Positions 3,983 through 60,239 of a DNA stretch of 64,000 bases are shown piece by piece. The notes below the pieces were generated by a model. The model was given only the letters and a program-made list of their open reading frames with translations, had not been told where the DNA came from and ran no database searches. Source of the stretch: an uncultured Alphaproteobacteria bacterium (GTDB lineage Bacteria; Pseudomonadota; Alphaproteobacteria; Rs-D84); NCBI GenBank assembly GCA_947053455.1, contig CAMRSV010000003.1:26315-90314 (forward strand), in the 5' to 3' direction. Both the position numbers and the translations under genes were made by a program. The stretch's first letter is position 1. Every line of letters starts with the position of its first letter.

Positions 3983-4056
3983 TGGCAGGGGCAGAAGGAA
4001 TCGAACCCTCATCCGCGGTTTTGGAGACCGATATTCTACCGTTGAACTATGCCCCT
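3983..4056 (-). tRNA. trnW: tRNA-Trp(CCA)
   Basis: AGGGGCATAGTTCAACGGTAGAATATCGGTCTCCAAAACCGCGGATGAGGGTTCGATTCCTTCTGCCCCTGCCA; cloverleaf, CCA anticodon, usual position before secE. Confidence 0.97.
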
Positions 4057-4302: not shown

Positions 4303-4980
4303 GTGCAAAACCGCATAGAACCGCCAGTTTTAGTATCACGCTTGATGACGTTTGTCTTGGCGGCGGCGCTGGTTGTATTAATGGCGCTGGGGTTAACATT
4401 GTATAAAATGTTCCCACTTAACCGGCCGGAAATATTTTTCCTGGCATCCCAGCCACGCGCTGATTTAGAGGTGCGGCTTATTGAAATGCCACCAAACGAT
4501 GAAAATTTGGCAAATTATAAAAAGGCTTTTATTCGTGAATATATCAAGGCGCGAAACGAGGTCGTGCCAAATGCAAAAATAATGCGTGAAAAATGGGCTA
4601 ACAATCGTGATGGTGTCGTGCGAGTATGGTCTGATGATGCGGTATTTACGAAATTTATTCAAACGGACATGTGGAACGCCCAGATGAATAACATACCAGA
4701 TTTTGAATTTTCATGCTCGGTTGAATTTCAAAACGGCGCAATATCACCATATTCAAACACTGATGATACATATATTGTAAATTTCCGTTATTTTTGTGCA
4801 GATAGTGATAGACAGATGGATAAAAAAGATTATAAAATAAAGGTAAAGCTGGAAACAACAGACGGCGAAAAAATGAAATGGGCCGACCGGTTGGAAAATC
4901 CGTTGGGAATACGCGTAACGGAATATAAGGTGGAATCAGGAAACGGTGACCCACTGGACACTGGTTTCTTGCCCAACTAA
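4303..4980 (+). CDS. virB8: type IV secretion inner-membrane protein VirB8-like
   Basis: GTG start after AGGAGAG; N-terminal TM; FIREYIKARNE and DRLENPLGIRVTEYKV VirB8 signatures. The track ORF extension to 3868 is spurious. Confidence 0.88.
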   Translation: MQNRIEPPVLVSRLMTFVLAAALVVLMALGLTLYKMFPLNRPEIFFLASQPRADLEVRLIEMPPNDENLANYKKAFIREYIKARNEVVPNAKIMREKWANNRDGVVRVWSDDAVFTKFIQTDMWNAQMNNIPDFEFSCSVEFQNGAISPYSNTDDTYIVNFRYFCADSDRQMDKKDYKIKVKLETTDGEKMKWADRLENPLGIRVTEYKVESGNGDPLDTGFLPN

Positions 4981-4997
4981 TTGATTTAGAAAGGATT

Positions 4998-6545
4998 ATG
5001 GACATGAGTTTTTCAAAAGCGTTCAAATTAAATGTATCCTTGCTGTGCATCGGTATGCTATGCTTTGCAGCACCGGCATTTGCCGAAGATTATGGCATAC
5101 AAGAGGCATGGGACAACCCACATGCCAACATGGCCAGCGGCAGCAGTAAGCCAGGATACGCCCAATTATCCTGGACCAAGGGCAGCGTTTTGCCAATAAA
5201 ACTGCGCAACGGCATGGTTACAATGGTGACGCTGCCTAATGGCGAACAAATTCAAGATGCAGTTATTGGTAACACAGGTCTTTTCACAATTCAGGACGCC
5301 GTCCAGGGTGGACGTACAATGATGATAAGCCCACAGCCCGCCGTCCAAGGTGGTGATACAAACATGATTGTAACGGGCAAATCTGGAAATACGTATGTTT
5401 TTTACCTGCGCGCGGAACCTGCAAATTCCAGTGAAATCACATACTCGCAGGTTGATATCGTTTTGGACGGTAATACCACATTGCCCAGCACAGGAACCAG
5501 TGCCACGACAGCGTCCGGCGGAATGAATTCAATATTTGCAAAAAAATCTGCGGCATCAAACACAGTTGGCGTTGACGGCGAAGATTATGGATGGATAAAG
5601 TCAATGAAAATCGACCCGTCCGAATTCCGCTTTGATTTGGATATTTTTGTTCCAAACCCAGATGATTATGTAATTGCACCGGAACGCGTATGGCGCGACA
5701 GAATATTTACCTATATCGACTTTGGCGACAAGGTTATCGCCATGACACAACGCCCGGTGGTATCGCTTTTGGTCGAAGGCGGCGAATCCCCAGTTGGATT
5801 CCGCACCGACGGCGAAGATGGCCGTCTGTTGATAGTAGAGGCGGTTGGCGACATGGTTTTGCGCAGCGGCCAGCGTATTGTATGTATTAAAAAACGTGAA
5901 AAGCCGTTCCTGATTGCAGATACAGCATCCGTCATGGCACTGGCCGAGGCTAATGTTGCACAATCTATAATGTCGGGACAATCATTGAACAACATTGCCT
6001 ATCAAATGGATATTAATGCAATAAATGCCGCCGGCACAAATTATACCGGGACACCAATATTCATGGGTCAAGGCGCCAACAGCACCACCGGCGCAGGCTA
6101 CTATATGCCCGCAGGATATGGTAAAACGATGACGGAAACAGTCATGGGTGGCGGCACGTCCGGTGTGACAATGATGCCAACACAAAGATTGACTGCGGGT
6201 TCATATCTGCCACAAACAAATATACCGTTGATTACCAGCAATCAGACCGGGGTTGCCGTGGAACTAAAGTCCGATACGTCGGTCAAGGCACTGGATGATT
6301 ACTGGACGGGACTATTGGCGAAATTCAGCGGCGAAAATGGTCAAGGTCTGCTAACGCCGTACAAAGACATGGTATTCTTTGCGGTTGACGAACAGGGGGT
6401 CGGCGATTTAGGTTCCGGCGCATCAACGGCGCGCCTGTACCGTTTACGTATAGGGCCAATGACCGACATAGACTCTGCGCAATCACTGTGCGACCAATTG
6501 CTAAAATTCAGCGGCGCCAGTTGCCATGTAGTAAGAATCCAGTAA
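4998..6545 (+). CDS. virB9: VirB9/TrbG/CagX-family outer-membrane core protein with C-terminal SPOR domain
   Basis: Signal peptide; VTMVTLPNGEQI..DTNMIVTGKSGNTYVFYL; PERVWRDRIFTYIDF..MVLRSGQRIVCI; C-terminal YRLRIGPMTDIDSAQSLCDQL..CHVVR. Confidence 0.88.
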   Translation: MDMSFSKAFKLNVSLLCIGMLCFAAPAFAEDYGIQEAWDNPHANMASGSSKPGYAQLSWTKGSVLPIKLRNGMVTMVTLPNGEQIQDAVIGNTGLFTIQDAVQGGRTMMISPQPAVQGGDTNMIVTGKSGNTYVFYLRAEPANSSEITYSQVDIVLDGNTTLPSTGTSATTASGGMNSIFAKKSAASNTVGVDGEDYGWIKSMKIDPSEFRFDLDIFVPNPDDYVIAPERVWRDRIFTYIDFGDKVIAMTQRPVVSLLVEGGESPVGFRTDGEDGRLLIVEAVGDMVLRSGQRIVCIKKREKPFLIADTASVMALAEANVAQSIMSGQSLNNIAYQMDINAINAAGTNYTGTPIFMGQGANSTTGAGYYMPAGYGKTMTETVMGGGTSGVTMMPTQRLTAGSYLPQTNIPLITSNQTGVAVELKSDTSVKALDDYWTGLLAKFSGENGQGLLTPYKDMVFFAVDEQGVGDLGSGASTARLYRLRIGPMTDIDSAQSLCDQLLKFSGASCHVVRIQ

Positions 6546-6568
6546 TCCAATCACGCGGCGGATAAAGT

Positions 6569-8947
6569 ATGATAAAAATAAAGCAACAATTTTCAGATTT
6601 GCGCAAAACAACGCCAAAGCATATTCAGTGGCTGCTGCTGGCGGCGGCGTTCATTGTGGTGCTGATATTGTTGACACTGTTGCTGACCGGTGGCCGGAAC
6701 AAGGAAACCATTCAAAACACAGATGACATTCCGGTAAAATTAAACATAACGCCGGACGTAATTGACTGGGCAGACACACCAGTTGATGAACGTCGTACGG
6801 AAACAATAAAAGTATCGGCTAACGGCCCGGTAAAAATCATGGCTGTGCGTGATACAAAAAGCATATCCGGATTTGAACACAAAGAAACATGTCCAAACAT
6901 GGGCGAGATTAACGATAAAATCTCGTGCACGATAACTGTGGATTATGTGCCCACCGCCGCCGCCACCGCCGAAGGAAACACTATGTTTATTGACTGGCGT
7001 GGCGCCAACGAATCCGATGCAATGGTGCGCACAGATAAAATTATCGTTACACTGGGCGCGGTCGCACCCGCGGCGCCGGTAAATTTTATAGAGCCCGAAC
7101 CAGAACCGGAAATTGTTGTACCAGAACCCATTCCGGAACCAGCGCCGATAAAATCTGAAATTGTGCGCGAAATTGAAACAATTGCACCATCTGACCCGTT
7201 TGCAGATAACAATGATGATGATGATGATTTTATTATCACCGAAACCGTGCAACCTTTGCCACCGGTTTCATCCCCGGTCACAAACACGCCGGCACGTGCA
7301 GAGACATGTTCTGACTTTGCATTTGCGGGTTACAATTCAACCGGCAATCAAATTGGCTGGATAAAGCCCGAAGGTGGCGCATATTATTTTCATCCATTTT
7401 CTGATAAAAACTGCGATACACCGACTGGAATTTACAACCCGGACAATGGCATAATTACATCAATTGACGGGTCAGGTCAAAAAATCGGTACTGATGCGGA
7501 ACACATTGGTCAAACAACAATTTCGTTAAATGGAACGATTCCGCAGCTGTCTAATGCGCCGGCTATAAAAAAGGTAAACCGTGCACGGCAATTAACCACC
7601 GAAGAATTATCCACAACCACATTGAATGAAGGTATGGGTCAGGTTCTGTTGGCGCCAGCGCCCGTGGACGTAAGTTTTAATTCTAGCGGCGATACCGTCC
7701 AAAATACGCAGCCGTTTGACCGTTCATTTATACTGCGTCAATATAAACCCATTCCGGCAACAATTGTTTCGGATATTCGCGCCGATGTAGAAGCGTTAAA
7801 AAACAATACACTGCCGGTTCGTGCAACTGTTGACCGCAATGTTTATGCCGATAATGGTCGCACGGTAATTATACCGGCCGGCACCCTATTGATGGGCTAT
7901 GTAACTGGCACATTGCCGGGACCATATACCACAATTGGGCGTATGGATATACGTTGGTATCAGTTTATATTGCCCAGTGGGGTTGAATTTAATTTCCAAG
8001 AAGGTCAAGATCCGTTTTCCGCAGACGCCCAGGGACGCACCGGTGTTCCCGGCCGCGGCAGCACCGATTATCTGGAACAGTTTGTTATGCCGATGTTAAC
8101 GGCGATTGTTCCGGCGGCGGTAAACATGATTGCGCCCGTCGCGGACAAGTTTGTTAATCAGATTGATTTGGACAATAACACTGTGGTGCAAAGCGGTACA
8201 CTGCGTTCATCGGAATTAGCTAAAAATGAAATTATCACTGCTTGGAATCAGGTGGCACAGAAATTGATGGTTGATATGATGGAAAATACAGTACCGCCGT
8301 TTTCAATCGCGGCCGGTACACGCATAACTGTATACTCACCCGTTGATTTGCAGGTAACATGCGGCACAGCAACAGAAAATCCGGGTAAAAAATGTGCAAT
8401 AACAGAATACAGCAGCAACAGACGCCGCAACGTCCAAAATAACGCCATTCCAGATTACGAAGACGGTTCATGGGTCGGCCAGGTTCGTTCATTTAATTGG
8501 GCGCAATATTGCGAAGGGTATGCCAACGGAAGATTATCTGATGAACAAACACAGGCCGTGTATGATGCCGGCTTGGATTACAGTTCAGTTCTGTTCTATT
8601 GCCAATCTAATCAATACAAGGCGATAAACAACGCCCGCCAGGACGCACTGTTCAAAAATCAGAAGTCAGCCAGCAACCAAAACAGCGTTGTCAGCATGGG
8701 CGGTGTGGGAACAACAGCATACAATGAAAATGTTCTTGGGTTGCAGTATGCAGACGAAGATAAAACACAAATTGTGAACCCGTTTTTGCAATTGCCAACA
8801 GAAGAAGCCCCCACGATAACATGCGAAGATGGTGCCAATCCAGATGCAAACGGTTGCTGCACCGGTGAAATATATACAGATATGGGCGACCAGGGATTCA
8901 ATTGCTGCCCGGAAACCGGAGGTGATTGTTTTCCGCCGATACAATAA
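6569..8947 (+). CDS. virB10: VirB10/TrbI-family protein, enlarged (792 aa)
   Basis: N-terminal TM, P/E-rich linker, TrbI domain (PIPATIVSDI..VRATVDRNVY..VIIPAGTLLMG..ADAQGRTGVPG..IAAGTRITVY); follows virB8-virB9. Confidence 0.9.
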   Translation: MIKIKQQFSDLRKTTPKHIQWLLLAAAFIVVLILLTLLLTGGRNKETIQNTDDIPVKLNITPDVIDWADTPVDERRTETIKVSANGPVKIMAVRDTKSISGFEHKETCPNMGEINDKISCTITVDYVPTAAATAEGNTMFIDWRGANESDAMVRTDKIIVTLGAVAPAAPVNFIEPEPEPEIVVPEPIPEPAPIKSEIVREIETIAPSDPFADNNDDDDDFIITETVQPLPPVSSPVTNTPARAETCSDFAFAGYNSTGNQIGWIKPEGGAYYFHPFSDKNCDTPTGIYNPDNGIITSIDGSGQKIGTDAEHIGQTTISLNGTIPQLSNAPAIKKVNRARQLTTEELSTTTLNEGMGQVLLAPAPVDVSFNSSGDTVQNTQPFDRSFILRQYKPIPATIVSDIRADVEALKNNTLPVRATVDRNVYADNGRTVIIPAGTLLMGYVTGTLPGPYTTIGRMDIRWYQFILPSGVEFNFQEGQDPFSADAQGRTGVPGRGSTDYLEQFVMPMLTAIVPAAVNMIAPVADKFVNQIDLDNNTVVQSGTLRSSELAKNEIITAWNQVAQKLMVDMMENTVPPFSIAAGTRITVYSPVDLQVTCGTATENPGKKCAITEYSSNRRRNVQNNAIPDYEDGSWVGQVRSFNWAQYCEGYANGRLSDEQTQAVYDAGLDYSSVLFYCQSNQYKAINNARQDALFKNQKSASNQNSVVSMGGVGTTAYNENVLGLQYADEDKTQIVNPFLQLPTEEAPTITCEDGANPDANGCCTGEIYTDMGDQGFNCCPETGGDCFPPIQ

Positions 8948-8951
8948 CATG

Positions 8952-8978
8952 AATCCCCGCACATCGTGGGGATTTTTT
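8952..8978 (+). terminator. Rho-independent terminator after virB10
   Basis: aatccccgc-acatc-gtggggatt followed by a T run. Confidence 0.7.
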
Positions 8979-9261
8979 AATATAACCGTGGGAGGGGGGT
9001 TGAAAAAATAAATAAATGATTTATATATATTCATGCATTCGGTACGCATATTCGCGTGCCGTTTTTATTATATGCCAATTTGTACCGCCTTGAAAAACGC
9101 GATTTTTTGCGATTCGTGCACATATGCACAAAAGCGACCAACGAATCGAAAAACATAATCGTATTTCAACCATTGGTTGTAATATTTTACAGCCTTCAAT
9201 TCTTGCTCTATACCAAAAGAACAACCTGTCATAAATAATCTAAACACAAAGGAGGGATAAT

Positions 9262-39822: not shown

Positions 39823-40566
39823 TTACACCGCGCGCACAACGCGACAAAACGAAACGCCATAAACCTCTAATGCGCCGGCACGCATCAGCACGCGCCGCAA
39901 TTCACGGAAAGTTGCACCACTCGTCATTACGTCATCAACTAGAAGAATACGCCGACCCCGAATTCTATCTGGGCGAATAACCGTAAAAACATTGCGGATA
40001 TTTTCCACTCTTTGTTTCGGGGTTTTATGCCCCATGTCGGGACGATGCTTTCTATGAACGCTGTCAACATCCATGCGAACACCATAGACCCGCGCAATCG
40101 GACGCGCCAGCAGTGTCGCATGATTATACGTTCTATGCAGTAGACGCCGCCGCGCCAATGGCACAGGCATAACAATATCGGGGCAAATATCAGCCCCATG
40201 CAGCGCCCATATCATAGCCAACGCCATAAAATATGAATACTTAATTTTACCTGCATGTTTAAACGGTAACATCGCCGCCTTTGACGCATCGTCATAAACG
40301 CATGCGCTGCGAATAAAATCCAACGCACAGTCACCCGCGGCGCACGTGGGACATAACGCATTTGGTGAAACATCAATGTGTGCCGGAAACGGATATCCAC
40401 ATTTCGCACACTTTGGCCCATCAATCCAATTGAACGCAGTCCAACAGTCAATACACAAATCACCGTGCGAATCAACTGGCGCATTGCACAACGGACACGT
40501 TGGCGGAAACAAAAAATCAATCAGGAAATTCGCCGCACCACGCACAATGCGACCGATAGTATACAT
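39823..40566 (-). CDS. comF: ComF family protein (zinc ribbons plus PRTase domain)
   Basis: FPPTCPLC..C..C, CAKCG..CPTC, ILLVDDVMTSGAT. Confidence 0.93.
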   Translation of the reverse strand: MYTIGRIVRGAANFLIDFLFPPTCPLCNAPVDSHGDLCIDCWTAFNWIDGPKCAKCGYPFPAHIDVSPNALCPTCAAGDCALDFIRSACVYDDASKAAMLPFKHAGKIKYSYFMALAMIWALHGADICPDIVMPVPLARRRLLHRTYNHATLLARPIARVYGVRMDVDSVHRKHRPDMGHKTPKQRVENIRNVFTVIRPDRIRGRRILLVDDVMTSGATFRELRRVLMRAGALEVYGVSFCRVVRAV

Positions 40567-40571
40567 TTATT

Positions 40572-41885
40572 TTACCAAGACATGCTTTTGTATGTTTTTT
40601 TACTTGTCGTATCACCAAACATATCGCGCTGTTTCTTGGTCAATGTTTCATATTGATCATTTGAAATAACGCGCAGAACGAATCCATCTTCATCACGCTG
40701 GCTTAATACTGGCATTATACGCTGTTCTGAAACACCGGTGTCACGCAAAACCTGTTCTACTATTGCTAGGCGCCGCGCCGCCAATTTGCGTGCATCCGTG
40801 TTACGCGTCGCCGCCTGGGGAATCGATACCTGAATTGCACGTTTCGGATTGCTGACCACGATTGATGCGTATTCGCTTAATAAATTATAATTATCACGGG
40901 ACAATGCCGCATCGTCATCACGGAATCTGATTTTTATCTCCAACGGACGAATACCTGCAGATTCAGACAAATCACGCCGGGCAGTAAATCCTTCAACAGA
41001 CGCGGTCATGTCACTGGCGACATCAAAACGGTCGTCTATCTGAAATGTAGACAAATGCTTGTTTTCTGATAAAAAGGTTTTACGAAACGCCTTGCGCAGT
41101 TCGGTCGGCGACATAGAATTCATATCATCACGCGCGGCAGCGATACGCGGCGCAGTATTCTTTTCCACGGTGCGCACAACAACATCAGGTGCCATTGGAA
41201 CAACCATGCGCGATAACTGTACCGGCGATGAATCCGCCACATCGTCTGCAGCAGGCTTTTGTGCACGCACGGCGGCAATCGAATCGACATGGCCGGCCGC
41301 GGAATCTAGTGCTATCTTCTGTGAACTGGTGGAACGCGTCGTGGCACGCACGCTTTCATCTGCGCGACGTTGCAATTCAACCAACTTTGAAATTTGAGAA
41401 TCTAAATCAGTTGCACGGGCGCGCAAATCATTTATTGACGCATCCTTTTCCACCGCTGCAAATGCGGAGTTTAAGTCCTCCTCTGGCAATTCGGCATCAG
41501 AACGAAACACAGAAAATTCATCAGGCGTTGGTATACGCAAGCTTGCATCTGATTTCGCCCATAAATCCGCACTTGGGCGACGTGGAGTCAAAACATCGGT
41601 TCGCGCAATTATTTCATCGCCATTGGCAACAGTTTTTGCGGCCGCTGCCTTTTTCGCAGCTCGTGTGACAACCTTTTTTTCCGGTGCCTTTGTTGGCGTC
41701 GCCACATCAACATGTGACGCCAAATCCGCCTTTGCAATTTGTTTGGGGGTCTGAATAATTTCTTCGCCAAATGCAGCGCGGGCTGAAACACTGCCCGCCG
41801 CCAGATTTACAACCGGCAAACGCGTACCGGCCGATGCCGGCAATGCAAATAACAGGGCAAATACAGATACCGAAATCCGTCGCAT
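40572..41885 (-). CDS. secreted protein with degenerate OmpA-like C-terminal domain
   Basis: Signal peptide; IRFRDDDAALS..ARKLAARRLAIVEQVLRDTGVSEQRI. Confidence 0.75.
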   Translation of the reverse strand: MRRISVSVFALLFALPASAGTRLPVVNLAAGSVSARAAFGEEIIQTPKQIAKADLASHVDVATPTKAPEKKVVTRAAKKAAAAKTVANGDEIIARTDVLTPRRPSADLWAKSDASLRIPTPDEFSVFRSDAELPEEDLNSAFAAVEKDASINDLRARATDLDSQISKLVELQRRADESVRATTRSTSSQKIALDSAAGHVDSIAAVRAQKPAADDVADSSPVQLSRMVVPMAPDVVVRTVEKNTAPRIAAARDDMNSMSPTELRKAFRKTFLSENKHLSTFQIDDRFDVASDMTASVEGFTARRDLSESAGIRPLEIKIRFRDDDAALSRDNYNLLSEYASIVVSNPKRAIQVSIPQAATRNTDARKLAARRLAIVEQVLRDTGVSEQRIMPVLSQRDEDGFVLRVISNDQYETLTKKQRDMFGDTTSKKTYKSMSW

Positions 41886-41954
41886 AATCTTTCCTTTCAC
41901 GACAATCATAGAACAAATCACGAAAGTCGCGCAAGCGGAAAAATAAGACAGATA

Positions 41955-47816: not shown

Positions 47817-49754
47817 ATGCGCGATTTTTTGAAAAACCAATTTGAAAACATATTCCTGTGGGCGCCGTTTTTAATGGCATTTGGTGCAGCGCTTTACTTT
47901 GGGTTGGATGTTGAACCAATGCTTCCATTCGCACCATTATTGGCCTTGGTAATATTGGTGCCATGTTTGCTGCGGCGAACGCCGAACACACTACGTGCGG
48001 TTTGTCTGTTTGTGTTTGGTTTTTTGTATGCGGCCGCATTCACCAAGATATTTGCCACACCACAGATTTTTCGCACTATGCGTGATATTGAAATTTCCGG
48101 ACGGGTTCACGCGATTGATTTTGGACCCGAAAAATCCAGAATTTATATAGATGCCGAAAACCTAAACCCGAATCCCGTGGGAAAAATGATTGTGCGCCTA
48201 TCCGTGTCGAATGACGCGCCGGAAATTTCTGTGGGTGACACGATACGTGCAAACGGTTCATTATTTAGACCTGCAGGCGCATACGCACCGGGAACATTTG
48301 ACTTTGCCCGTTGGGCATATTTTAACGGATTGACCGCAACCGGATATGCATCCGACATTGAAATAACATCAAACGCAAACGCGGGAACGCTGACCACTAT
48401 GCGTTCATATTTACACAAATTAGTGGATTCTTTCTTGGCGGACGGACTGGTTTTGGGTTACAAGCAATCTGTTCCGGAATCCGATTCAGACATCTGGATT
48501 GCATCTGGTATTGGTCACGTTTGGTCAATCAGTGGCTTTCACATGACTCTTGTATCGGGATGGCTGTTTGCAATATTTTATTTGATATTGCGCTGCATAC
48601 CATTTATAACACGACGCGTTCCGGCGCGAATACCTGCAATGATTCTCGCCCTTGGTGGATTGGTTTTATACCTGTTCTTATCTGGCACAAACATTGCCAC
48701 AATAAGAGCGTTTATAATGACTGCACTGGTATTCGCGGCGTTTATTCTGGGACGCAATGCGATTTCAATGCGCAATATATGCATGGCACTCCTAGCAGTA
48801 TTTCTTTTAAACCCGCACTGCGTTATGCAGGCCGGATTTCAATTATCTTTTTCTGCAGTGTTTGGTCTTGTATGGTTTTGGGGAACAATTAAACCTAAAA
48901 TGCCAGAAAACAAAATCCTAAAGATAATTTATTCAGCTGTTGCGACATCGCTTGTTGCGACAATTTTCACCCTGCCATTCGTCGCCGTGCATTTCTATGC
49001 GATGCCATTGTATGGACTGTTGGGTAATCTTGTACTGCTACCTATATTTTCTTTTGTAATAATGCCGCTGGTAATGATTGGCATTGTGTTAGCTACAATC
49101 GGAATCAGGTTTCCGATTGATATTGCACACACCGCATATGATTTAACATTAATACTGGCGAATAAAATTGCGGAATTGCCATTCGCATCACTGCAGATGC
49201 CACATATATCAAATACGGCAATGATTATTATAATAATCGGATTTGTATGCCTTATACTGGTGCGTGCAAACCGCATACGAACAAACATTGCAATATTCTG
49301 TGCATTTGAAATGATTGGGCTGATTTTTATTGCATTAACGCCACGGCCGGTTTTCTTTGCGTCACCGGATCACGAACTGGTTGCATTCCGCGATTACAAC
49401 AAATTGGAATTTAATAAATCGCGGGCATCAAATCACTTTTTCGCGTTTGACACATGGAAACAAATATCAGGTGTCACAACCGACACACCCAATGTTCGGC
49501 GCAAGCATAACAAGGGTCTGTATGTTTTTCATACAAAGAATTTTAGTCTGGCATATATTCAAAAATTTGTGCCACTGCACAAAAATATTTCAAAACTTTG
49601 CCAGGATGACAGAATAAACTATATCGTGTCTTATTTTGATGTAAGGTCGCCGCAGTGTGACAACAAGATTTTACGTGGTGGCGTCCTTGTTTACCCGTCT
49701 GGTTACGTTAAACAAATTATGCATTTGCGGCCATGGCATAATCCGCGCCAATAA
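47817..49754 (+). CDS. comEC: ComEC/Rec2 DNA uptake channel
   Basis: DUF4131/OB region (PGTFDFARWAYF), SGIGHVWSISGFHM, ATIRAFIM, AGFQLSF. Confidence 0.95.
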   Translation: MRDFLKNQFENIFLWAPFLMAFGAALYFGLDVEPMLPFAPLLALVILVPCLLRRTPNTLRAVCLFVFGFLYAAAFTKIFATPQIFRTMRDIEISGRVHAIDFGPEKSRIYIDAENLNPNPVGKMIVRLSVSNDAPEISVGDTIRANGSLFRPAGAYAPGTFDFARWAYFNGLTATGYASDIEITSNANAGTLTTMRSYLHKLVDSFLADGLVLGYKQSVPESDSDIWIASGIGHVWSISGFHMTLVSGWLFAIFYLILRCIPFITRRVPARIPAMILALGGLVLYLFLSGTNIATIRAFIMTALVFAAFILGRNAISMRNICMALLAVFLLNPHCVMQAGFQLSFSAVFGLVWFWGTIKPKMPENKILKIIYSAVATSLVATIFTLPFVAVHFYAMPLYGLLGNLVLLPIFSFVIMPLVMIGIVLATIGIRFPIDIAHTAYDLTLILANKIAELPFASLQMPHISNTAMIIIIIGFVCLILVRANRIRTNIAIFCAFEMIGLIFIALTPRPVFFASPDHELVAFRDYNKLEFNKSRASNHFFAFDTWKQISGVTTDTPNVRRKHNKGLYVFHTKNFSLAYIQKFVPLHKNISKLCQDDRINYIVSYFDVRSPQCDNKILRGGVLVYPSGYVKQIMHLRPWHNPRQ

Positions 49755-54942: not shown

Positions 54943-56229
54943 TTATTTTTTTATTTCCCCGTACCATTTTTTAAGGTTTTGCCACATAATTTTTGCATTA
55001 TTTTTGAACTGGTTATAAAAATCTTCTGAAATATTGATGTTAAACAGCATCTTGGCCAGCGCAACCGTTGATGTCATAAACATCGCAATAAATATTCCCA
55101 TAAGTATAATAGTTACCAAACTGTCGTTATGCATCAACAGTCCGTCCATTAAAATGCCCGAATCGTTTTTCTCAATCGCTGTGGCAAGCGCACCCGCCCC
55201 ATCCCAGCGTCCGAAAACCGCATTCAAAAACATAACAGAAAATGTAACGAATACGCCCACCGCCGCAATCCCAAGCGTTCCAGACACAACGTCATTTATC
55301 ATCGATTGTATGTTTTTCTTGCCCGTGGGTAATATTTTCCAATCCGAAAACAACCACGACAACAGCATTATCGGCAACATTATCAAATCCATGGAAAGTT
55401 TTATAAACACCTCCAAGAAATATATAGGCACCGGCAGCAGTGCATAGAAAAATAACGCCAATATCAATGCACCGGCAAAGAAAATCGGAACATTTGGAAA
55501 AATCGGGATATCCCACATTATTTTATGCATATATTTTTCATTAAACGCCATATTAAGCATTGTCCATCCAACGGTCATCCCCAATCCCGTCATCTGGTGC
55601 GCATTGGCCACCTCGCACGCCAGATTATGCCGCAGACGCGGCGAAAACGCCCCGGACGCAGCGGACGTATCGGATACAGACACAGGGTCTGCAATCGCGG
55701 TTGCAACCACGCACTCGGCAAACTTATCGTTACCGGCAACAACACGATTAAGTGATAATCCGATGTTAAATATCGGCTCTATCGCAACGGTGGTAAGTAT
55801 ACGCGGCATCGGCGCCAACAGAACCGCCCCCACAAAAACTAACTTTATAATGTGCGTACCAAACGTACTTGTAGTTGTCCAAGCATCTTCAGTTTTACCT
55901 TCCATAAATCCGGATGTCATTTTCCATGCAAACCATATAGCCGTAAGTGCCGCCGACATTGGAAAAACGACGCGCCCAATTGCCCCATACGCGCGTGGCA
56001 ACAGACCTGACATCGTTGCCATAACATCCGAAAACATCTGACACGACCAACAGGTCGAGAAAAAATTCATTGCATCCGCCATATTGACTGGCGCCGCCGA
56101 CCGATAAATTGAAAAGCCTGCAACAACCCCAATTCCGACCAGTCCACCCACGACAAACGGAGCCACCGCCCCGGCTGCGACCGGGGCAAATGCAATAATT
56201 GCAATCCAGAACTTTTTTAACCAATTCAT
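54943..56229 (-). CDS. VirB6/TrbL-like polytopic membrane protein (paralogue 1, CWSC)
   Basis: Start reassigned to MNWLKK; multi-TM; FLEVFIKLSMDLIMLPIMLLSWLF helix matches the VirB6 conserved Pro segment. Confidence 0.68.
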   Translation of the reverse strand: MNWLKKFWIAIIAFAPVAAGAVAPFVVGGLVGIGVVAGFSIYRSAAPVNMADAMNFFSTCWSCQMFSDVMATMSGLLPRAYGAIGRVVFPMSAALTAIWFAWKMTSGFMEGKTEDAWTTTSTFGTHIIKLVFVGAVLLAPMPRILTTVAIEPIFNIGLSLNRVVAGNDKFAECVVATAIADPVSVSDTSAASGAFSPRLRHNLACEVANAHQMTGLGMTVGWTMLNMAFNEKYMHKIMWDIPIFPNVPIFFAGALILALFFYALLPVPIYFLEVFIKLSMDLIMLPIMLLSWLFSDWKILPTGKKNIQSMINDVVSGTLGIAAVGVFVTFSVMFLNAVFGRWDGAGALATAIEKNDSGILMDGLLMHNDSLVTIILMGIFIAMFMTSTVALAKMLFNINISEDFYNQFKNNAKIMWQNLKKWYGEIKK

Positions 56230-56296
56230 TGTTTTAACTATATCATATTTTGCATCAAATGTGATATAATTGAAAAGATAAATAATACGGGCGGGA

Positions 56297-57571
56297 ATGT
56301 TTTTTTTCAAACGGAGGACTTTTTTATCCATTGTTCTGGCGGCGGGATTGATATTTAATTCCGCGATGCCCGCATTTGCCGATATCGTCGACAGTTTTAA
56401 TCTGGCACCGTTTGTGCCGACGGTGCTTGATGCGCTGATGATGGTTGCCACCGGCGGATATGAATTTTTTGTAGGCAAAGGCAACGGCATCATATACATC
56501 CTGGTCTGGGGTTTTTTGGCGTTTTCACTAACATACGGTATTGCAAAAATGTATTTCCCGAAAATTGCCGGCGACCTGTTGGGGACAAGCGGGGTTGGCA
56601 CAATGATGGACGGCAAGGTAACGGCACAAAACATTATTCAAAACAATGTCATGAAACCTGTTTTGCGCGCGATTATTGCGGCGGCGGTGTTATTACAACT
56701 GCGTCCCGCATTTATGACTGAATGGCTGGTCAATCCGTTTTTGCAGGTGGGTGCAATTTACACACGCGCAATAACCGATACAATCAACACCGGCATCGCC
56801 GCACCAAAAATGGAATGCCCGCCCGAAATTGTTGAAAAAGAATGGATTTCAAAATCTTCGTGCGAATTTCTGATTCAACCCGTGGCGGACATATCGGTCG
56901 CAAACAATCAGGTTATCAAAACAGGTTTTGGCTTTATTACGCGTGGGCTGCGTGGATTGATGACGCTGGTGCCGCACGGCGGCGAAGATTTCTTGAATCT
57001 GGTCACGGGAATTTTACTGGTGACGACATTTGTCGCATCGAATCTGTTCATGGCACTGCTAATTATACAGGCGATATTTAATTTTGGTATGGCGCTGATA
57101 CTGTATCCATTTAATGTTTTGGCGTATGTTGCAAAATCCAGTGACAAATGGCTGGACATATGGCCGGCATTTTCGGGCATAACCAAGGCATTACAAAGAC
57201 TGATTATAACAATGATTGCATGTGCGTTCATATTGTGCATAAATGTTTCGGTGATACGCGCCCTGTTCCAATGGAACAGTTCCGTCTTTGTTGTTGCGGC
57301 CGGCGGCGTTGGAACCAGCAACATGCCGCAAATAGCAACCAACGCGATGGGCTTTGGCGCGCATTCAATACTGTGGTTGTCGGCGATACTGACATTTTAT
57401 TTGATGTTCCGCATCTTTGCACTGACACGCGAACAATTAAACGCGTATGTCGGCGGCGGAATGGATAACCTATATAAAAGCACAACCAATGACGCAAAGA
57501 CCATGTGGGCGGGCGCAAAAAATTTGGGCAAAAAAATCGGCACGGCCGCGGGATGGATTAAAAAGAAATGA
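56297..57571 (+). CDS. VirB6/TrbL-like protein (paralogue 2)
   Basis: Signal-like N-terminus; IIQAIFNFGMALILYPFNVLAYV. Confidence 0.65.
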   Translation: MFFFKRRTFLSIVLAAGLIFNSAMPAFADIVDSFNLAPFVPTVLDALMMVATGGYEFFVGKGNGIIYILVWGFLAFSLTYGIAKMYFPKIAGDLLGTSGVGTMMDGKVTAQNIIQNNVMKPVLRAIIAAAVLLQLRPAFMTEWLVNPFLQVGAIYTRAITDTINTGIAAPKMECPPEIVEKEWISKSSCEFLIQPVADISVANNQVIKTGFGFITRGLRGLMTLVPHGGEDFLNLVTGILLVTTFVASNLFMALLIIQAIFNFGMALILYPFNVLAYVAKSSDKWLDIWPAFSGITKALQRLIITMIACAFILCINVSVIRALFQWNSSVFVVAAGGVGTSNMPQIATNAMGFGAHSILWLSAILTFYLMFRIFALTREQLNAYVGGGMDNLYKSTTNDAKTMWAGAKNLGKKIGTAAGWIKKK

Positions 57572-58791
57572 ACGGTATCGCAAACTATTTTGTAGACAAC
57601 GCCGTCCAGTGCTGGGGATGTCCGGTGTTTGACCGGCTGTTCCAAATCGTGTCAAACGGCGCGGCGGCGGTCTATTCACAATTTAGTACGATATGCCTGA
57701 TTATATTCTGCGTACTGTTTGCGTTTTATGTCGTAAACGCCGTGTGGAAAAACATGCAATCAGGTGGCGATGACCCGTTTTATCAGAAATCAATGCGCCC
57801 GGTTATTATAAATTCAATAGTCGCGCTATCATTGCTGGGGCTGGGTGTTGCGTTGCCCCGGCTTATAACGACGGTGACATTTGAACCGGTGGCACAAATG
57901 GCGACTGTGTACACCCAAACTATGATTGGCACCGATTCTGCGGCGGTTAATGAACGTGTTACATACACACCCGAAAAAATGTCAGACAACGGATTTTACC
58001 GCCCGCAAATGCGCGATATGATAATAATGCTTACCAAGACAACAATAACGCAATTTCAATCATACATGAAACTGGGAATTGCCGTTATGGACAAGGCATT
58101 TTCCTGGGACGCGCTGCTGGGCATAGGCGCATTGATTAAGCATATAATATTGTTTTTAATCGGGCTTTACCTTTTCTATGGATTTTTCAAGATATTTGCG
58201 AAGTTCTGCTTTTATTTCGCAGACATTATTGTGGCGATGGCATTCTTTGCGTTTTTCTTTCCACTCTCACTGGTGCTAATGGCGTTCAAAGGTGCACAGA
58301 ACGTTCCAGGCTGGATGTCGGGTCTTGGTAAAAATATCGGCATAGGTCAATTTAAGAACCTGATTAAGGCGATAATAACGCTGGCGGCGGCCGTGATAAC
58401 ATACACAGTTATAGTGGTGATAATCGCCAAATACTTTTCAGCCCCCGGTGCATCGGCGGCCGACCTAATGCAAATAATCACCAGTGGGAATATATTTGCC
58501 GCGGACTTATCAGACGAAAATCTGGCGGCAATGACACTTATGGGCGCGGTTGTGCTGATATATGTCTTGAACTTTATTTATTCCCAGATACCAGAGGTTA
58601 CAAAAATGGTGCTGGATGTATTCGGTACTTCTGAAAAACATAATTTGGGCGATGCATTGGCCAAAGATGCGATGCAACTTACCAACGCGGTAATAAACAC
58701 TGCGAAAAATATTGGAAAAACCGTCATGTCCAGCGGGAATCAGAAAGAAGAAAAAACCGACGGTAAAAAAGACAATAAGGCAGCCAAATGA
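57568..58791 (+). CDS. VirB6/TrbL-like protein (paralogue 3, CWGC)
   Basis: FYFADIIVAMAFFAFFFPLSLVLMAFK; ATGA overlap with the previous gene. Confidence 0.68.
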   Translation: MNGIANYFVDNAVQCWGCPVFDRLFQIVSNGAAAVYSQFSTICLIIFCVLFAFYVVNAVWKNMQSGGDDPFYQKSMRPVIINSIVALSLLGLGVALPRLITTVTFEPVAQMATVYTQTMIGTDSAAVNERVTYTPEKMSDNGFYRPQMRDMIIMLTKTTITQFQSYMKLGIAVMDKAFSWDALLGIGALIKHIILFLIGLYLFYGFFKIFAKFCFYFADIIVAMAFFAFFFPLSLVLMAFKGAQNVPGWMSGLGKNIGIGQFKNLIKAIITLAAAVITYTVIVVIIAKYFSAPGASAADLMQIITSGNIFAADLSDENLAAMTLMGAVVLIYVLNFIYSQIPEVTKMVLDVFGTSEKHNLGDALAKDAMQLTNAVINTAKNIGKTVMSSGNQKEEKTDGKKDNKAAK

Positions 58792-60230
58792 AAGCAAAAC
58801 TTATCATGATTGCCATTCGTTTGATTATGGGCGCAATTGCACTTGGGCTTGGCATTTGGTATTTGTCGTCGTCAATTGGGGGGGCATCCCTGACCTATTC
58901 CAGCATGAACGGATTCATGTCTGCAATCGGGGCGACGGACGGGGATATCGCAAACGTGAACGGATGCTTTATGTGCGGTTATGTAGCGGAAATATTTGGC
59001 GTCATTGGGCGGGCGGCGGAAATGTTTTGGACGGCGATGGTCGACAACATCTGGATTTTAATGGCGATTGGGTTTGGAATATTCTTGTTTATCTACACGG
59101 CGCAATACATATTTGACGCGGCGAAAAAAACCACCACCCTTGATGGCAAGGAAAAGTCCCTAGAGTTTAAGGGTTGGTTTGATAAAATCTGGCCACAGGC
59201 GGTGCGGATTATTGCCGTCGGCGCACTGATGGGCATGCTGGGGATGGGGGGAACCACCGCACTGCGCGCGGTAACCCAGGTGACGGTGACGCCCGTGCTG
59301 TTTGTCGGCACACAAATAGCCATGGCCGCAACCGGGGTAGACAACGCCGCATCATGCGGCGGCGGTACGATTGCGGCGGCGGCCCGAAACGATGTTCTAA
59401 ATCCGGTTCTACAACCTTTTATGTGCATTGTAGGTAATATAAACAGCGTAATGCTGGCCGGTGCGGCGGGTGGCTTTGCCCTTATGAACTACGCATGGCT
59501 GGGGATGGGCGGCGGCGCAATAACATGGATTGCGGGATTGGCTCTGGTGATAATGTTTTTACTAATCGGGTTCAAATTATTCTTTGAAATATTGTCCGTC
59601 GTGTTTGAATTGATATTTGTAATAATATTTATGCCACTGCTGCTAGCGGCGGCGGCATTTGAACCCGTTTGGAATGCGGCATCAGGATTAATAAAAAAGG
59701 CAATCAATTTGTTAATTAACGCAGCCATCCAGGTTGTACGCATCGCACTTAAAACACTGATAATATATGCGACCGTATCATACGCCGCCGACATTTACTT
59801 TCCCGGCCCCGCCGATGGATACAGCGCCATACTGCCGCCAATGATGGGGCGCGAAATTCAAAACCCGGATGCACAGACACTTTCGGTCATGACAGTATTT
59901 TCCGACTGTGAAAAGGTATCACTTGCAGACGGTGAAATGAACGCGGACAAATTCAAAAAGTGCTTTACCGCACGGCGAGCAGAGGTTGAACGCCGATACC
60001 CTGGCGCGTTTGATTTCCTGTCGGATGGGTGGGATTTCATGATGCTGATGCTGGGGCTGTTTATATTGTACTTTTTCGCACTTGAACCGGAAATCAACAA
60101 AATACTGGGCAAGGATTTAAAAACCAATTTTGACTTTGGCGGGAATATTCTGGCATTGGGCAAAAAGATATGGGCGGCTCCAAGGCAAATATTTGAAACT
60201 ATATCAAAAACCGTCGGCAAAAAGGACTAG
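58788..60230 (+). CDS. VirB6/TrbL-like protein (paralogue 4, CFMC)
   Basis: FELIFVIIFMPLLLAAAAFEP..KKAINLLINAAIQ; ATGA overlap. Confidence 0.7.
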   Translation: MKAKLIMIAIRLIMGAIALGLGIWYLSSSIGGASLTYSSMNGFMSAIGATDGDIANVNGCFMCGYVAEIFGVIGRAAEMFWTAMVDNIWILMAIGFGIFLFIYTAQYIFDAAKKTTTLDGKEKSLEFKGWFDKIWPQAVRIIAVGALMGMLGMGGTTALRAVTQVTVTPVLFVGTQIAMAATGVDNAASCGGGTIAAAARNDVLNPVLQPFMCIVGNINSVMLAGAAGGFALMNYAWLGMGGGAITWIAGLALVIMFLLIGFKLFFEILSVVFELIFVIIFMPLLLAAAAFEPVWNAASGLIKKAINLLINAAIQVVRIALKTLIIYATVSYAADIYFPGPADGYSAILPPMMGREIQNPDAQTLSVMTVFSDCEKVSLADGEMNADKFKKCFTARRAEVERRYPGAFDFLSDGWDFMMLMLGLFILYFFALEPEINKILGKDLKTNFDFGGNILALGKKIWAAPRQIFETISKTVGKKD

Positions 60231-60239
60231 GCGCCAACA

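What the first reader, a model, noticed from the sequence alone, without database searches (positions are those of the whole stretch)
6249..6545. VirB9 fused to a peptidoglycan-binding SPOR domain
Seen: after the second VirB9 domain comes a long Gly/Thr/Met/Ala-rich linker, then VAVELKS..YW..L..F...YRLRIGPMTDIDSAQSLCDQL..CHVVR, a good SPOR pattern. Established: SPOR domains bind denuded septal glycan. Inference: the T4SS outer core may be tethered to or placed at the division septum or new pole, an architecture I do not know from model T4SSs.
Basis: partly seen in the sequence, partly recalled or inferred. Interest (0 to 1): 0.72.

Follow-up and report, generated by a model that had tools for sequence, protein, structure and literature searches.

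The report
VirB9 fused to an atypical SPOR domain
A chromosomal type IV secretion gene of a small-genome gut alphaproteobacterium encodes the outer-ring protein VirB9 fused to a cell-wall-binding SPOR-type domain, but the glutamine that normally grips the septal glycan is a glutamate in every member, so wall tethering is likely and septum targeting is unproven.

Summary
Bases 6249-6545 encode residues 418-515 plus the stop of a 515-aa VirB9 (ORF 4998-6545), which lies between virB8 and virB10.

The tail is a genuine SPOR homologue:
- All 30 aligned homologues hit Pfam SPOR.
- A profile of the tail finds canonical SPOR proteins in 1.8 billion sequences.
- hhalign gives 99.2% probability.
- The AlphaFold model is beta-alpha-beta-beta-alpha-beta, and its top four PDB matches are DedD, RlpA (twice) and CwlC SPOR domains.

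The fusion is not an artefact. It is intact in 120 listed proteins and 80 genome loci, and in at least five clusters below 50% identity. All sit in chromosomal contexts of uncultured Alphaproteobacteria (Candidatus Enterousia and relatives).

The beta1 glutamine that contacts the glycan (RlpA Q270, FtsN Q251) is Glu in every fused domain examined (Asp in one). In E. coli FtsN, Q251E weakens denuded-glycan binding and septal localisation.

My best reading is a ring of linker-tethered SPOR-type domains that anchors the T4SS outer core to peptidoglycan, with non-canonical ligand specificity. Septal or polar placement is possible but not shown. I class it as a new variant of known kinds, of moderate interest.

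The parts
4304..4980 (+). virB8 (about 225 aa), first gene of the three-gene unit. GTG start at 4304, preceded by AGGAGAG.
   Evidence: Pfam VirB8 PF04335, E 9.2e-10. The start was read from the sequence. tRNA-Trp lies just upstream at 3983-4056 (-).
4998..6545 (+). virB9-SPOR fusion ORF (515 aa from the ATG at 4998; homologues start at the ATG at 5004, giving 513 aa).
   Evidence: Homologues are full length: 120 proteins of 75-100% identity are listed out of 1395 hits, and 80 genome loci are kept out of 200.
4998..5084 (+). Probable Sec signal peptide (residues 1-29, ...APAFA|EDYG).
   Evidence: Read from the sequence. Inference only; no signal-peptide predictor was run.
5148..5468 (+). VirB9 N-terminal beta-sandwich domain (residues about 51-157).
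   Evidence: Pfam CagX covers residues 56-299. In the AF2 full-length model strands 54-156 have pLDDT about 80. Mean pairwise identity is 75%.
5568..5903 (+). VirB9 C-terminal domain (residues about 191-302), nearly invariant in the clade.
   Evidence: Pfam CagX. Mean pairwise identity is 98%. It is not confidently modelled as a monomer.
5904..6002 (+). Conserved post-CTD segment (residues 303-335, PFLIADTASVMALAEANVAQS...), predicted helical.
   Evidence: Mean pairwise identity is 96%. AF2 gives helices 309-326 and 330-343, but at low confidence.
6003..6185 (+). Variable low-complexity Gly/Thr/Met/Ala-rich linker (residues 336-396).
   Evidence: Mean pairwise identity is 46% and length varies between homologues. 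pLDDT is below 40.
6186..6248 (+). Conserved pre-SPOR motif (residues 397-417, R-x-TAGSYLPQxNIPLIxSNQ).
   Evidence: Mean pairwise identity is 84%. Divergent fusions keep it as G-x-(Y/I/F)-LP-x3-(V/I)P-(L/V). AF2 models IPLI as a strand.
6249..6545 (+). SPOR-type domain (residues 418-515) plus stop codon. Secondary structure: beta1 418-426 (E422 in place of the canonical Gln, codon 6261-6263), alpha1 429-443, an insert of about 13 aa, beta2 459-464, beta3 480-488 (YRLRIGP with R482 and R484), alpha2 491-505, beta4 510-514. C498 and C509 form a conserved Cys pair. The protein ends at Q515.
6569..8947 (+). virB10 (792 aa), with the TrbI domain at residues 390-590 and a long Cys-rich C-terminal extension.
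   Evidence: Pfam TrbI, E 1.4e-17, and NCBIfam T4SS_VirB10, E 4.1e-16. Sequence.
8951..8975 (+). Terminator-like hairpin (10-bp stem followed by a T run) directly after the virB10 stop. A second one lies at 9040-9061.
   Evidence: This is a consensus scan only.

Best explanation
The gene encodes a periplasmic VirB9 subunit of the outer-membrane core of a chromosomal type IV secretion system. After its two canonical domains come a conserved helical segment, a flexible low-complexity linker of about 60 residues, and a C-terminal domain that is a true but atypical homologue of the SPOR peptidoglycan-binding domain.

Model T4SS cores contain about 14 VirB9 copies (established knowledge, not tested here). 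Each machine would therefore carry a ring of tethered SPOR-type domains reaching down to the sacculus. The most likely role is to anchor or position the outer core on peptidoglycan in cis. The Legionella Dot/Icm core does this in trans with the OmpA-like subunits DotK and Dis1, and type IV pilus secretins do it with AMIN domains.

The fold, the beta3 arginines and the Cys pair of the nearest canonical SPOR subfamily are kept. The glycan-contacting beta1 Gln is replaced by a conserved Glu in the whole VirB9-fused clade. So the ligand, or the binding mode, probably differs from classical denuded septal glycan.

What is shown: homology, predicted fold, fusion, conservation, chromosomal context and the Q-to-E change. 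What is inferred: periplasmic location, peptidoglycan binding, ring stoichiometry and the anchoring role.
For: - VirB9 identity and virB8-virB9-virB10 gene order.
- SPOR homology. All 30 tails hit PF05036, best E 3.9e-9. The tail profile finds canonical SPOR proteins at E 2.7e-8 to 1e-5 among 1.84e9 representatives, and these score 1e-26 to 1e-34 on PF05036. hhalign gives 99.2% probability, E 1.8e-19, over 81 columns.
- Fold. The AF2 model (pLDDT 75) is beta-alpha-beta-beta-alpha-beta. The top four Foldseek PDB hits are DedD 6ztg, RlpA 6i09 and 6i05, and CwlC 1x60, with probability 0.97-1.0.
- The fusion is real and under selection. It is intact in 120 listed proteins and 80 loci from separate genome assemblies, kept from 200 matches. 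An independent contig spans 5267-6556 with 12 substitutions and no gaps. The SPOR region is 81% identical on average, against 46% for the linker and 75% for the VirB9 NTD.
- The fusion is old. At least five further clusters below 50% identity (P0129, P0139, P0143, P0134, P0158) carry CagX plus the same tail, each next to virB10 and four of the five also next to virB8, and among housekeeping genes.
- The layout of anchor, disordered low-complexity linker and terminal SPOR is the usual SPOR-protein design (PMC6895207).
- R482 and R484 align with the beta3 basic residues of canonical SPORs.
- The organism makes peptidoglycan and has a canonical Gln-type SPOR protein. The window holds mraY, ftsW, murG, a class A PBP, and a DD-carboxypeptidase-SPOR at 16570-17760.
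- There is precedent for peptidoglycan-binding modules on secretion outer cores: DotK and Dis1 (PMC9302130) and PilQ AMIN (PMC5285504).
Against: - No binding or localisation data exist for any member.
- The beta1 Gln, the only side chain highly conserved among SPOR domains of known structure for glycan contact, is Glu in all 120 close homologues. It is Glu or Asp in all 20 fused-type sequences of the joint alignment.
- The same change in FtsN (Q251E) reduces binding and septal localisation. The domain may therefore bind peptidoglycan weakly or not at all.
- The Pfam score of the window protein itself is at or below the gathering cut-off. No PDB SPOR sequence is found by sequence search.
- The full-length AF2 model is poor (pLDDT 50), so the spatial relation of the tail to the core is unknown.
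- The rest of the T4SS (virB2-6, virB11, virD4) is not in the 64-kb window, so I could not show that a complete machine exists.
Confidence: 0.55

Rival explanations
1. The SPOR domain binds amidase-denuded septal glycan in the canonical way. T4SS outer cores are therefore recruited to the division septum and inherited at new poles.
For: - The domain is a genuine SPOR homologue and has the SPOR fold.
- The basic beta3 residues are kept.
- About 14 copies per core could compensate for weak single-domain affinity by avidity (inference).
- Septal peptidoglycan targeting of an envelope machine through a domain on its outer-ring protein is proven for PilQ AMIN (PMC5285504).
- Polar targeting of the Dot/Icm T4SS is reported in the review literature (PMC9302130).
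Against: - The key Gln is Glu in every fused member.
- FtsN Q251E reduces septal localisation and denuded-glycan binding.
- In RlpA the Gln amide donates hydrogen bonds to the MurNAc lactyl carboxylate and the GlcNAc acetyl oxygen. A carboxylate cannot do this and would repel the lactyl group.
- The same genome keeps a Gln-type SPOR on its DD-carboxypeptidase. The change is therefore specific to the VirB9 lineage and not general drift.
Confidence: 0.2
2. The domain is an exapted SPOR fold that no longer binds peptidoglycan. It would instead serve as a protein-protein module inside the T4SS. It might dock onto the unusually long VirB10 or onto VirB8, act as a periplasmic plug or assembly chaperone, or replace a missing VirB7-like stabiliser.
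For: - The ligand-contact Gln is lost, yet the domain is very well conserved (81% mean identity), including a conserved preceding motif and an invariant C-terminal Gln.
- No virB7-like lipoprotein gene precedes virB8 here.
- VirB10 in this clade carries large extra regions: 792 aa here and 2274 aa in L081.
Against: - The Arg pair on beta3, the Cys pair and the overall sheet surface pattern of peptidoglycan-binding relatives are retained.
- A variable low-complexity linker of about 60 residues suggests reach to a distant target such as the sacculus, not docking onto a neighbour in the same ring.
- No interaction partner has been identified.
Confidence: 0.2
3. The fusion or the SPOR call is an artefact, arising from a frameshift, a misassembly or a chance profile match.
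For: The SPOR Pfam score of this single sequence is borderline and matches only half of the profile.
Against: - The same uninterrupted ORF occurs in 120 listed proteins, in 80 loci from separate genome assemblies, and in five clusters below 50% identity from NCBI, JGI, ENA and Logan assemblies.
- An independent contig spans the junction without gaps.
- Profile-profile probability is 99.2%.
- The top Foldseek hits are all SPOR domains.
Confidence: 0.02

Closest known systems
Canonical VirB9/TrbG/CagX outer-membrane core subunits (Agrobacterium VirB9, pKM101 TraO, R388 TrwF)
   Same: It matches Pfam PF03524 across both domains, has an N-terminal export signal, and is encoded between virB8 and virB10.
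   Different: It carries about 215 extra C-terminal residues: a conserved helical segment, a low-complexity linker and a SPOR-type domain. It is chromosomal and lies among housekeeping genes. It scores far below the NCBIfam VirB9 and TrbG equivalog cut-offs (51.5 against 217.7 bits).
SPOR domains (PF05036): FtsN, DamX, DedD, RlpA, CwlC. The nearest in sequence are multi-SPOR proteins of uncultured bacteria, one of them annotated as Pseudomonadota (P0136, P0138, P0140, P0141, P0145).
   Same: It has the beta-alpha-beta-beta-alpha-beta fold, the YRLRxGP beta3 motif with its arginines, the alpha1 Trp, a Cys pair spanning alpha2 and beta4, a C-terminal position behind a disordered linker, and 99.2% hhalign probability.
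   Different: The beta1 motif is (I/V)-E-(L/I)-(G/A/K) instead of V-Q-L-G-(S/A)-(F/Y). The glycan-contacting Gln is Glu, which is the FtsN Q251E loss-of-binding change. The Enterousia clade has an insert of about 13 aa between alpha1 and beta2. There is a conserved LP...VPL motif upstream, and the protein always ends ...VVR-x-Q.
PilQ secretin AMIN domains of type IVa pili (P. aeruginosa, M. xanthus)
   Same: A peptidoglycan-binding domain is fused in cis to the multimeric outer-membrane ring protein of a trans-envelope machine. It recruits the machine to septal or polar peptidoglycan and anchors it (PMC5285504).
   Different: The fold differs (AMIN, not SPOR), the position differs (N-terminal, not C-terminal) and the machine differs (secretin, not T4SS core). 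Binding and localisation are experimentally shown for PilQ and not for this protein.
Legionella Dot/Icm outer-membrane core subunits DotK and Dis1 (OmpA-like domains)
   Same: These are peptidoglycan-binding modules present at one copy per asymmetric unit of a T4SS outer core (PMC9302130).
   Different: They are supplied in trans as separate lipoproteins with an OmpA-like fold that binds stem-peptide-bearing peptidoglycan. Here the module is fused to the VirB9 (DotH-equivalent) subunit itself and is SPOR-type.
DD-carboxypeptidase (Peptidase_S11)-SPOR protein of the same window (16570-17760, minus strand)
   Same: It has a C-terminal SPOR domain behind an Ala/Ser/Pro-rich linker, in the same organism.
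   Different: Its beta1 is the canonical GVQFGAF with Gln. BLASTP finds no similarity to the VirB9 tail (E 2.5), so the VirB9 tail is not a recent copy of it.

Membership tests
VirB9/TrbG/CagX (PF03524) | Profile match above the curated threshold across the N- and C-terminal domains | tested here: met
   PF03524 scores 77.4 bits against a cut-off of 34.2, covering residues 56-299 and profile positions 5-197 of 198.
VirB9/TrbG/CagX (PF03524) | Encoded between virB8 and virB10 homologues | tested here: met
   VirB8 (PF04335) lies upstream and TrbI/VirB10 (PF03743) downstream. Divergent relatives L081-L083 have the same order; in L084 virB10 follows but no virB8 is called next to virB9.
VirB9/TrbG/CagX (PF03524) | NCBIfam equivalog score for P-type VirB9 or TrbG | tested here: not met
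   TIGR02781 scores 51.5 bits against a cut-off of 217.7, and TIGR02775 scores 21.6 against 180.85. This is a divergent member, not an equivalog of the conjugative P-type proteins.
VirB9/TrbG/CagX (PF03524) | Exported to the periplasm (signal peptide) | not tested
   An N-terminal hydrophobic stretch ending APAFA|ED was read from the sequence. No predictor was run.
SPOR domain (PF05036) | Profile match above the Pfam gathering score | tested here: inconclusive
   The window protein scores 18.2 bits as a full protein and 21.2-21.7 bits as an isolated tail, against a cut-off of 21, and matches only the second half of the profile. All 30 homologous tails match at E<=0.1, best 3.9e-9. Some homologues carry a precomputed PF05036 hit.
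SPOR domain (PF05036) | Homology to undisputed SPOR domains by profile methods | tested here: met
   The tail profile finds proteins that score 1e-26 to 1e-34 on PF05036. hhalign gives 99.2% probability and E 1.8e-19.
SPOR domain (PF05036) | RNP-like beta-alpha-beta-beta-alpha-beta fold with a four-stranded sheet backed by two helices | tested here: met
   The AF2 model (pLDDT 75) has that element order. The top four Foldseek PDB hits are DedD, RlpA (twice) and CwlC SPOR domains, with probability 0.97-1.0 and TM up to 0.62 on the target. This is a predicted structure, not a solved one.
SPOR domain (PF05036) | Conserved beta1 Gln that hydrogen-bonds MurNAc lactyl and GlcNAc acetyl (RlpA Q270, FtsN Q251, DamX Q351) | tested here: not met
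   It is Glu (E422) in 120 of 120 close homologues. It is Glu in 19 and Asp in 1 of the 20 fused-type domains in the joint alignment, while 24 of 24 canonical domains have Gln in that column. The role of the Gln is described in PMC6895207.
SPOR domain (PF05036) | Basic patch on the sheet (beta3 Arg residues: RlpA R309 and R311, FtsN R285) | tested here: met
   In YRLRIGP, R482 and R484 are invariant and align with the canonical YRLRxGP.
SPOR domain (PF05036) | Binds denuded glycan strands and localises to the septum | not testable with these tools
   This needs sacculus pull-down, ITC and fluorescent-fusion localisation. The only indirect evidence argues against it: FtsN Q251E reduces both.
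Peptidoglycan-anchored trans-envelope machines (PilQ-AMIN type, DotK/Dis1 type) | A peptidoglycan-binding module carried stoichiometrically by the outer-membrane ring | tested here: inconclusive
   The architecture fits, with the module fused to the ring subunit by a linker. Peptidoglycan binding itself is unproven. The comparison rests on PMC5285504 and PMC9302130.

The most novel reading that the evidence does not exclude
The Glu-type SPOR domain is a new specificity class. It would read a peptidoglycan feature other than ordinary denuded glycan, for example a positively charged de-N-acetylated sugar or a modified chain end. De-N-acetylated anhydro-muramic chain ends do exist in some Alphaproteobacteria (PMC10838918). 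This would place or lock about 14 tethers of the T4SS outer core at a specific envelope site. That would be a cell-wall 'address code' for a secretion machine, in a clade of about 1-Mb gut Alphaproteobacteria that probably depend on other cells.
Probability: 0.15. Interest if true: 0.8.

Novelty: new variant of a known kind. Interest (0 to 1): 0.55.

Why it matters
How T4SS outer cores are positioned and fixed relative to the cell wall is only partly understood. Known solutions use separate OmpA-like subunits or inner-membrane polar-targeting factors. A VirB9 that carries its own wall-binding module would be a third solution, acting in cis.

It also defines a natural, strongly conserved Gln-to-Glu SPOR subfamily. 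That offers a direct test of what determines SPOR ligand specificity, through an E422Q swap, sacculus binding and localisation in E. coli. The hosts are abundant, uncultured, genome-reduced gut bacteria whose lifestyle is unknown. A conserved chromosomal T4SS with unusual envelope anchoring is a lead into how they interact with other cells.

Tried and rejected
- A sequence search of the tail profile against all PDB chains found no SPOR entry, only chance antibody hits at E>0.3. SPOR domains are too divergent for this, so I used fold search instead.
- The full-length AF2 model with 40 close homologues was poor (pLDDT 50). The nearly invariant VirB9 CTD and the linkers were unmodelled, so it says nothing about where the tail sits.
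- BLASTP of the tail against the window's own DD-carboxypeptidase-SPOR found no similarity. I rejected the idea of a recent intragenomic domain copy.
- hmmsearch with the Enterousia-only profile aligned the alpha1 'YW' to the canonical beta1 'YWVQLG', which would have moved the Gln column. I rejected this alignment. The divergent fused members lack the 13-aa insert and match the canonical spacing, and both MAFFT and hhalign with them place E opposite Q.
- Short E-type hits (96-179 aa) looked like stand-alone domains. The two I checked lie on contigs of 684 and 997 bp. One starts 29 nt from the contig end and is probably a fragment. The other (L086) does not translate to the query, so its status is open.
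- The primary paper for FtsN Q251E (Duncan et al. 2013, PMC3837948) is not held. The claim is cited second-hand and from PMC6895207.
- I considered a ComB-like DNA-uptake T4SS, because ComEC and ComFC-like genes are in the window and virB11 does not follow virB10. NCBIfam scores for VirB10 (59.1 bits) and ComB10 (55.4 bits) do not discriminate, and a divergent relative has virB11 after virB10. The question is left open.
- I could not determine T4SS completeness.
Full report
**What is at the coordinates.** Bases 6249-6545 translate to GVAVELKSD...YRLRIGPMTDIDSAQSLCDQLLKFSGASCHVVRIQ*. These are residues 418-515 plus the stop of one uninterrupted ORF, 4998-6545, of 515 aa.
- The ORF matches Pfam CagX/VirB9 at residues 56-299 (77.4 bits, cut-off 34.2).
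- It lies between a VirB8 homologue (about 4304-4980) and a 792-aa VirB10/TrbI homologue (6569-8947).
- Residues 336-396 are a variable linker rich in Gly, Thr, Met and Ala.

**Is the tail a SPOR domain?** For this sequence alone Pfam is borderline. It scores 18.2 bits in the full protein and 21.2-21.7 bits in isolation, against a cut-off of 21, and matches only profile positions 41-75. Four independent lines settle the question.
1. All 30 diverse homologous tails hit PF05036, best E 3.9e-9.
2. A profile of the tail was searched against 1.84 billion representative proteins. Besides VirB9 fusions, it finds multi-SPOR proteins at E 2.7e-8 to 1e-5, and these score 1e-26 to 1e-34 on PF05036.
3. 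hhalign of 20 fused domains against 24 canonical domains gives 99.2% probability and E 1.8e-19 over 81 columns.
4. The AlphaFold2 model of the last 116 residues (pLDDT 75) is beta-alpha-beta-beta-alpha-beta. Its top four PDB matches by Foldseek are DedD, RlpA (two entries) and CwlC SPOR domains, with probability 0.97-1.0.

A PDB sequence search found nothing. That is expected, because SPOR domains share less than 20% pairwise identity (PMC6895207).

**Is the fusion real?** Yes.
- The protein search returned 1395 hits. The 120 listed are 486-537 aa long and 75-100% identical, and 113 of them cover at least 99% of the query.
- 200 stretches of the species-representative genome collection (one genome per species) encode a relative. 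The 80 kept loci match residues 1-515, 3-515 or similar.
- An independent contig covers 5267-6556 with 12 substitutions and no gaps.
- The tail is under purifying selection. Mean pairwise identity is 81% in the SPOR region and 84% in a 21-residue motif before it. It is 46% in the linker and 75% in the VirB9 N-terminal domain.
- The architecture is old. Clusters below 50% identity (P0129, P0139, P0143, P0134, P0158, plus partial sequences) have both CagX and the same tail.
- All four contigs read carry virB10 after virB9, three of them also carry virB8 before it, and all lie among housekeeping genes.

**Organism and context.** The window is chromosomal.
- rplJ, rplA, rplK, nusG and tRNA-Trp lie upstream. 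yidC, lspA and a cation/proton antiporter lie downstream.
- The rest of the window holds gyrA, leuS, mraY, ftsW, murG, a class A PBP, ComEC and other housekeeping genes.
- The best genome matches are MAGs labelled uncultured Alphaproteobacteria or Candidatus Enterousia, including a closed 958,618-bp genome.
- Enterousia belongs to order Rs-D84, a gut lineage with genomes of about 0.75-1 Mb (PMC12306168).
- This strain occurs in mouse-gut metagenomes.
- virB8-virB9-virB10 looks like a three-gene unit. A ribosome-binding site precedes the virB8 GTG, and terminator-like hairpins follow virB10 directly.
- No other T4SS gene is in the 64 kb. A divergent relative has virB8, a small ORF, virB8, virB9, virB10 and virB11 in that order.
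- Two short contigs from a run labelled metatranscriptomic overlap virB9 and virB10. This is only a weak hint of expression.

**The change that alters the interpretation.** In the RlpA SPOR-glycan crystal structures, one side chain is highly conserved across SPOR domains of known structure. It is the beta1 Gln (RlpA Q270, FtsN Q251, DamX Q351), whose amide hydrogen-bonds the MurNAc lactyl group and the GlcNAc acetyl oxygen. A basic patch (RlpA R302, R309, R311; FtsN R285) and backbone contacts complete the site (PMC6895207).

I made a joint alignment of 20 VirB9-fused domains and 24 canonical SPOR domains. The canonical set includes the DD-carboxypeptidase-SPOR of this same window and CwlC.
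- Every canonical domain has Gln in that column (WVQLGS, VQFGAF, VQIGAF).
- Every fused domain has Glu, except one with Asp (VELKS, IELGA, IEIGV).
- hhalign pairs the same columns.
- All 120 close homologues have Glu.
- The arginines of YRLRxGP, the alpha1 Trp and a Cys pair are shared with the nearest canonical subfamily.

[quoted passage not shown] The VirB9 tail is therefore a conserved 'Glu-type' SPOR. It is not a decayed one, given its conservation. It is also not a lineage-wide drift, because the same genome keeps a Gln-type SPOR.

Further clade-specific traits are:
- an upstream G-x-(Y/I/F)-LP-x3-(V/I)-P-(L/V) motif, which AF2 models as an extra strand;
- an insert of about 13 residues between alpha1 and beta2 in the Enterousia branch;
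- an invariant ...VVR-x-Q C-terminus.

**Most likely mechanism.** VirB9 is exported; the signal peptide is read from the sequence and is an inference. It assembles with VirB10 into the outer-membrane core. From each of the roughly 14 subunits (a number taken from model systems), a disordered linker of about 60 residues lets a SPOR-type domain reach the sacculus. The result would be a multivalent tether that fixes or positions the core.

The design of anchor, low-complexity linker and terminal SPOR is the standard SPOR-protein layout. Wall-binding modules on secretion outer rings have precedent in DotK and Dis1 of Dot/Icm and in the PilQ AMIN domains. The AMIN domains recruit the type IV pilus machine to septal and polar peptidoglycan.

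Because of the Gln-to-Glu change, I do not accept that the ligand is ordinary denuded septal glycan. The domain could bind it weakly, with avidity compensating. It could bind a different wall feature. It could also have been exapted for a protein contact. I put anchoring with non-canonical specificity at about 0.55, canonical septal targeting at about 0.2, a non-peptidoglycan protein-interaction role at about 0.2, and an artefact at about 0.02.

**Comparison with what is known, and novelty.** No paper in the held library mentions VirB9 together with a SPOR domain. Searches for T4SS with SPOR and for VirB9 with peptidoglycan-binding returned nothing describing such a fusion. Automated annotation has already attached PF05036 to some homologues, so the architecture is implicit in databases but undescribed.

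The protein is a member of the VirB9 family, though divergent and below the NCBIfam equivalog cut-offs. It is a homologue of SPOR domains that fails one defining functional feature. I rate it a new variant of known kinds, of moderate interest. The fusion itself and the natural Q-to-E subfamily are both directly testable in E. coli.

**Limits.**
- There are no binding, localisation or structural data for any member.
- The spatial relation of the tail to the core is unknown, because the full-length model is poor.
- T4SS completeness, and the presence of amidases or deacetylases in these genomes, were not determined.
- The Q251E phenotype is cited second-hand, because the primary paper is not held.

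Noticed in passing
window 6569-8947 (+); L081 4115-10939: VirB10 is unusually elaborate. Here it is 792 aa, with a Pro-rich and acidic N-terminal half and a Cys-rich extension of about 200 aa after the TrbI domain (ending ...NGCCTGEIYTDMGDQGFNCCPETGGDCFPPIQ). In a divergent relative it is 2274 aa, with nine beta-flower repeats (PF21785) before the TrbI domain.
   Followed up: partly
window 16570-17760 (-): A DD-carboxypeptidase (Peptidase_S11) carries a canonical Gln-type C-terminal SPOR domain (GVQFGAF...WRVRV). It shows that the organism also uses ordinary SPOR domains. It has no BLASTP similarity to the VirB9 tail.
   Followed up: yes
window 54943-56634 (-) and 56297-61529 (+): Five large ORFs give no Pfam hit even at E 0.1. 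Four are consecutive on the + strand (424, 407, 480 and 429 aa). One of 563 aa lies on the - strand and overlaps the first of them by about 340 nt. This block of unknown function sits in an otherwise housekeeping region.
   Followed up: no
window 47817-49754 (+) and 39823-40566 (-): ComEC (Competence plus DUF4131) and a ComFC-like protein (double zinc ribbon plus phosphoribosyltransferase) are present. The virB8-10 unit lacks a following virB11 or virD4, which raises the untested possibility of a ComB-like DNA-uptake role.
   Followed up: partly
window 4304-8975: virB8-virB9-virB10 appears to be a self-contained three-gene unit next to tRNA-Trp and the nusG-rplKAJ cluster, with terminator-like hairpins at 8951-8975 and 9040-9061. 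No other T4SS gene lies within the 64 kb, so the system seems to be scattered on the chromosome.
   Followed up: partly
window 6186-6248 (residues 397-417): The conserved motif R-x-TAGSYLPQ(S/T)NIPLI(T/S)SNQ lies immediately before the SPOR domain. Fusions below 50% identity keep it as G-x-(Y/I/F)-LP-x3-(V/I)P-(L/V). AF2 models part of it as an extra strand. Its function is unknown.
   Followed up: partly
window 40572-41921 (-): A 449-aa ORF beside murG has only a weak OmpA-like C-terminal match (E 0.013, below cut-off). It may be a divergent peptidoglycan-associated outer-membrane protein.
   Followed up: no
window 9262-9606 and 9599-10039 (+): Two small ORFs (114 and 146 aa) lie between the virB10 terminator and yidC and have no Pfam match. 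Whether they are real genes or relate to the T4SS is unknown.
   Followed up: no
L081 658-2269: A divergent relative encodes two VirB8 paralogues separated by a 58-aa ORF, upstream of virB9-SPOR. From memory, not tested here, this recalls the gene duplications of the Rickettsiales vir-homologue T4SS.
   Followed up: no
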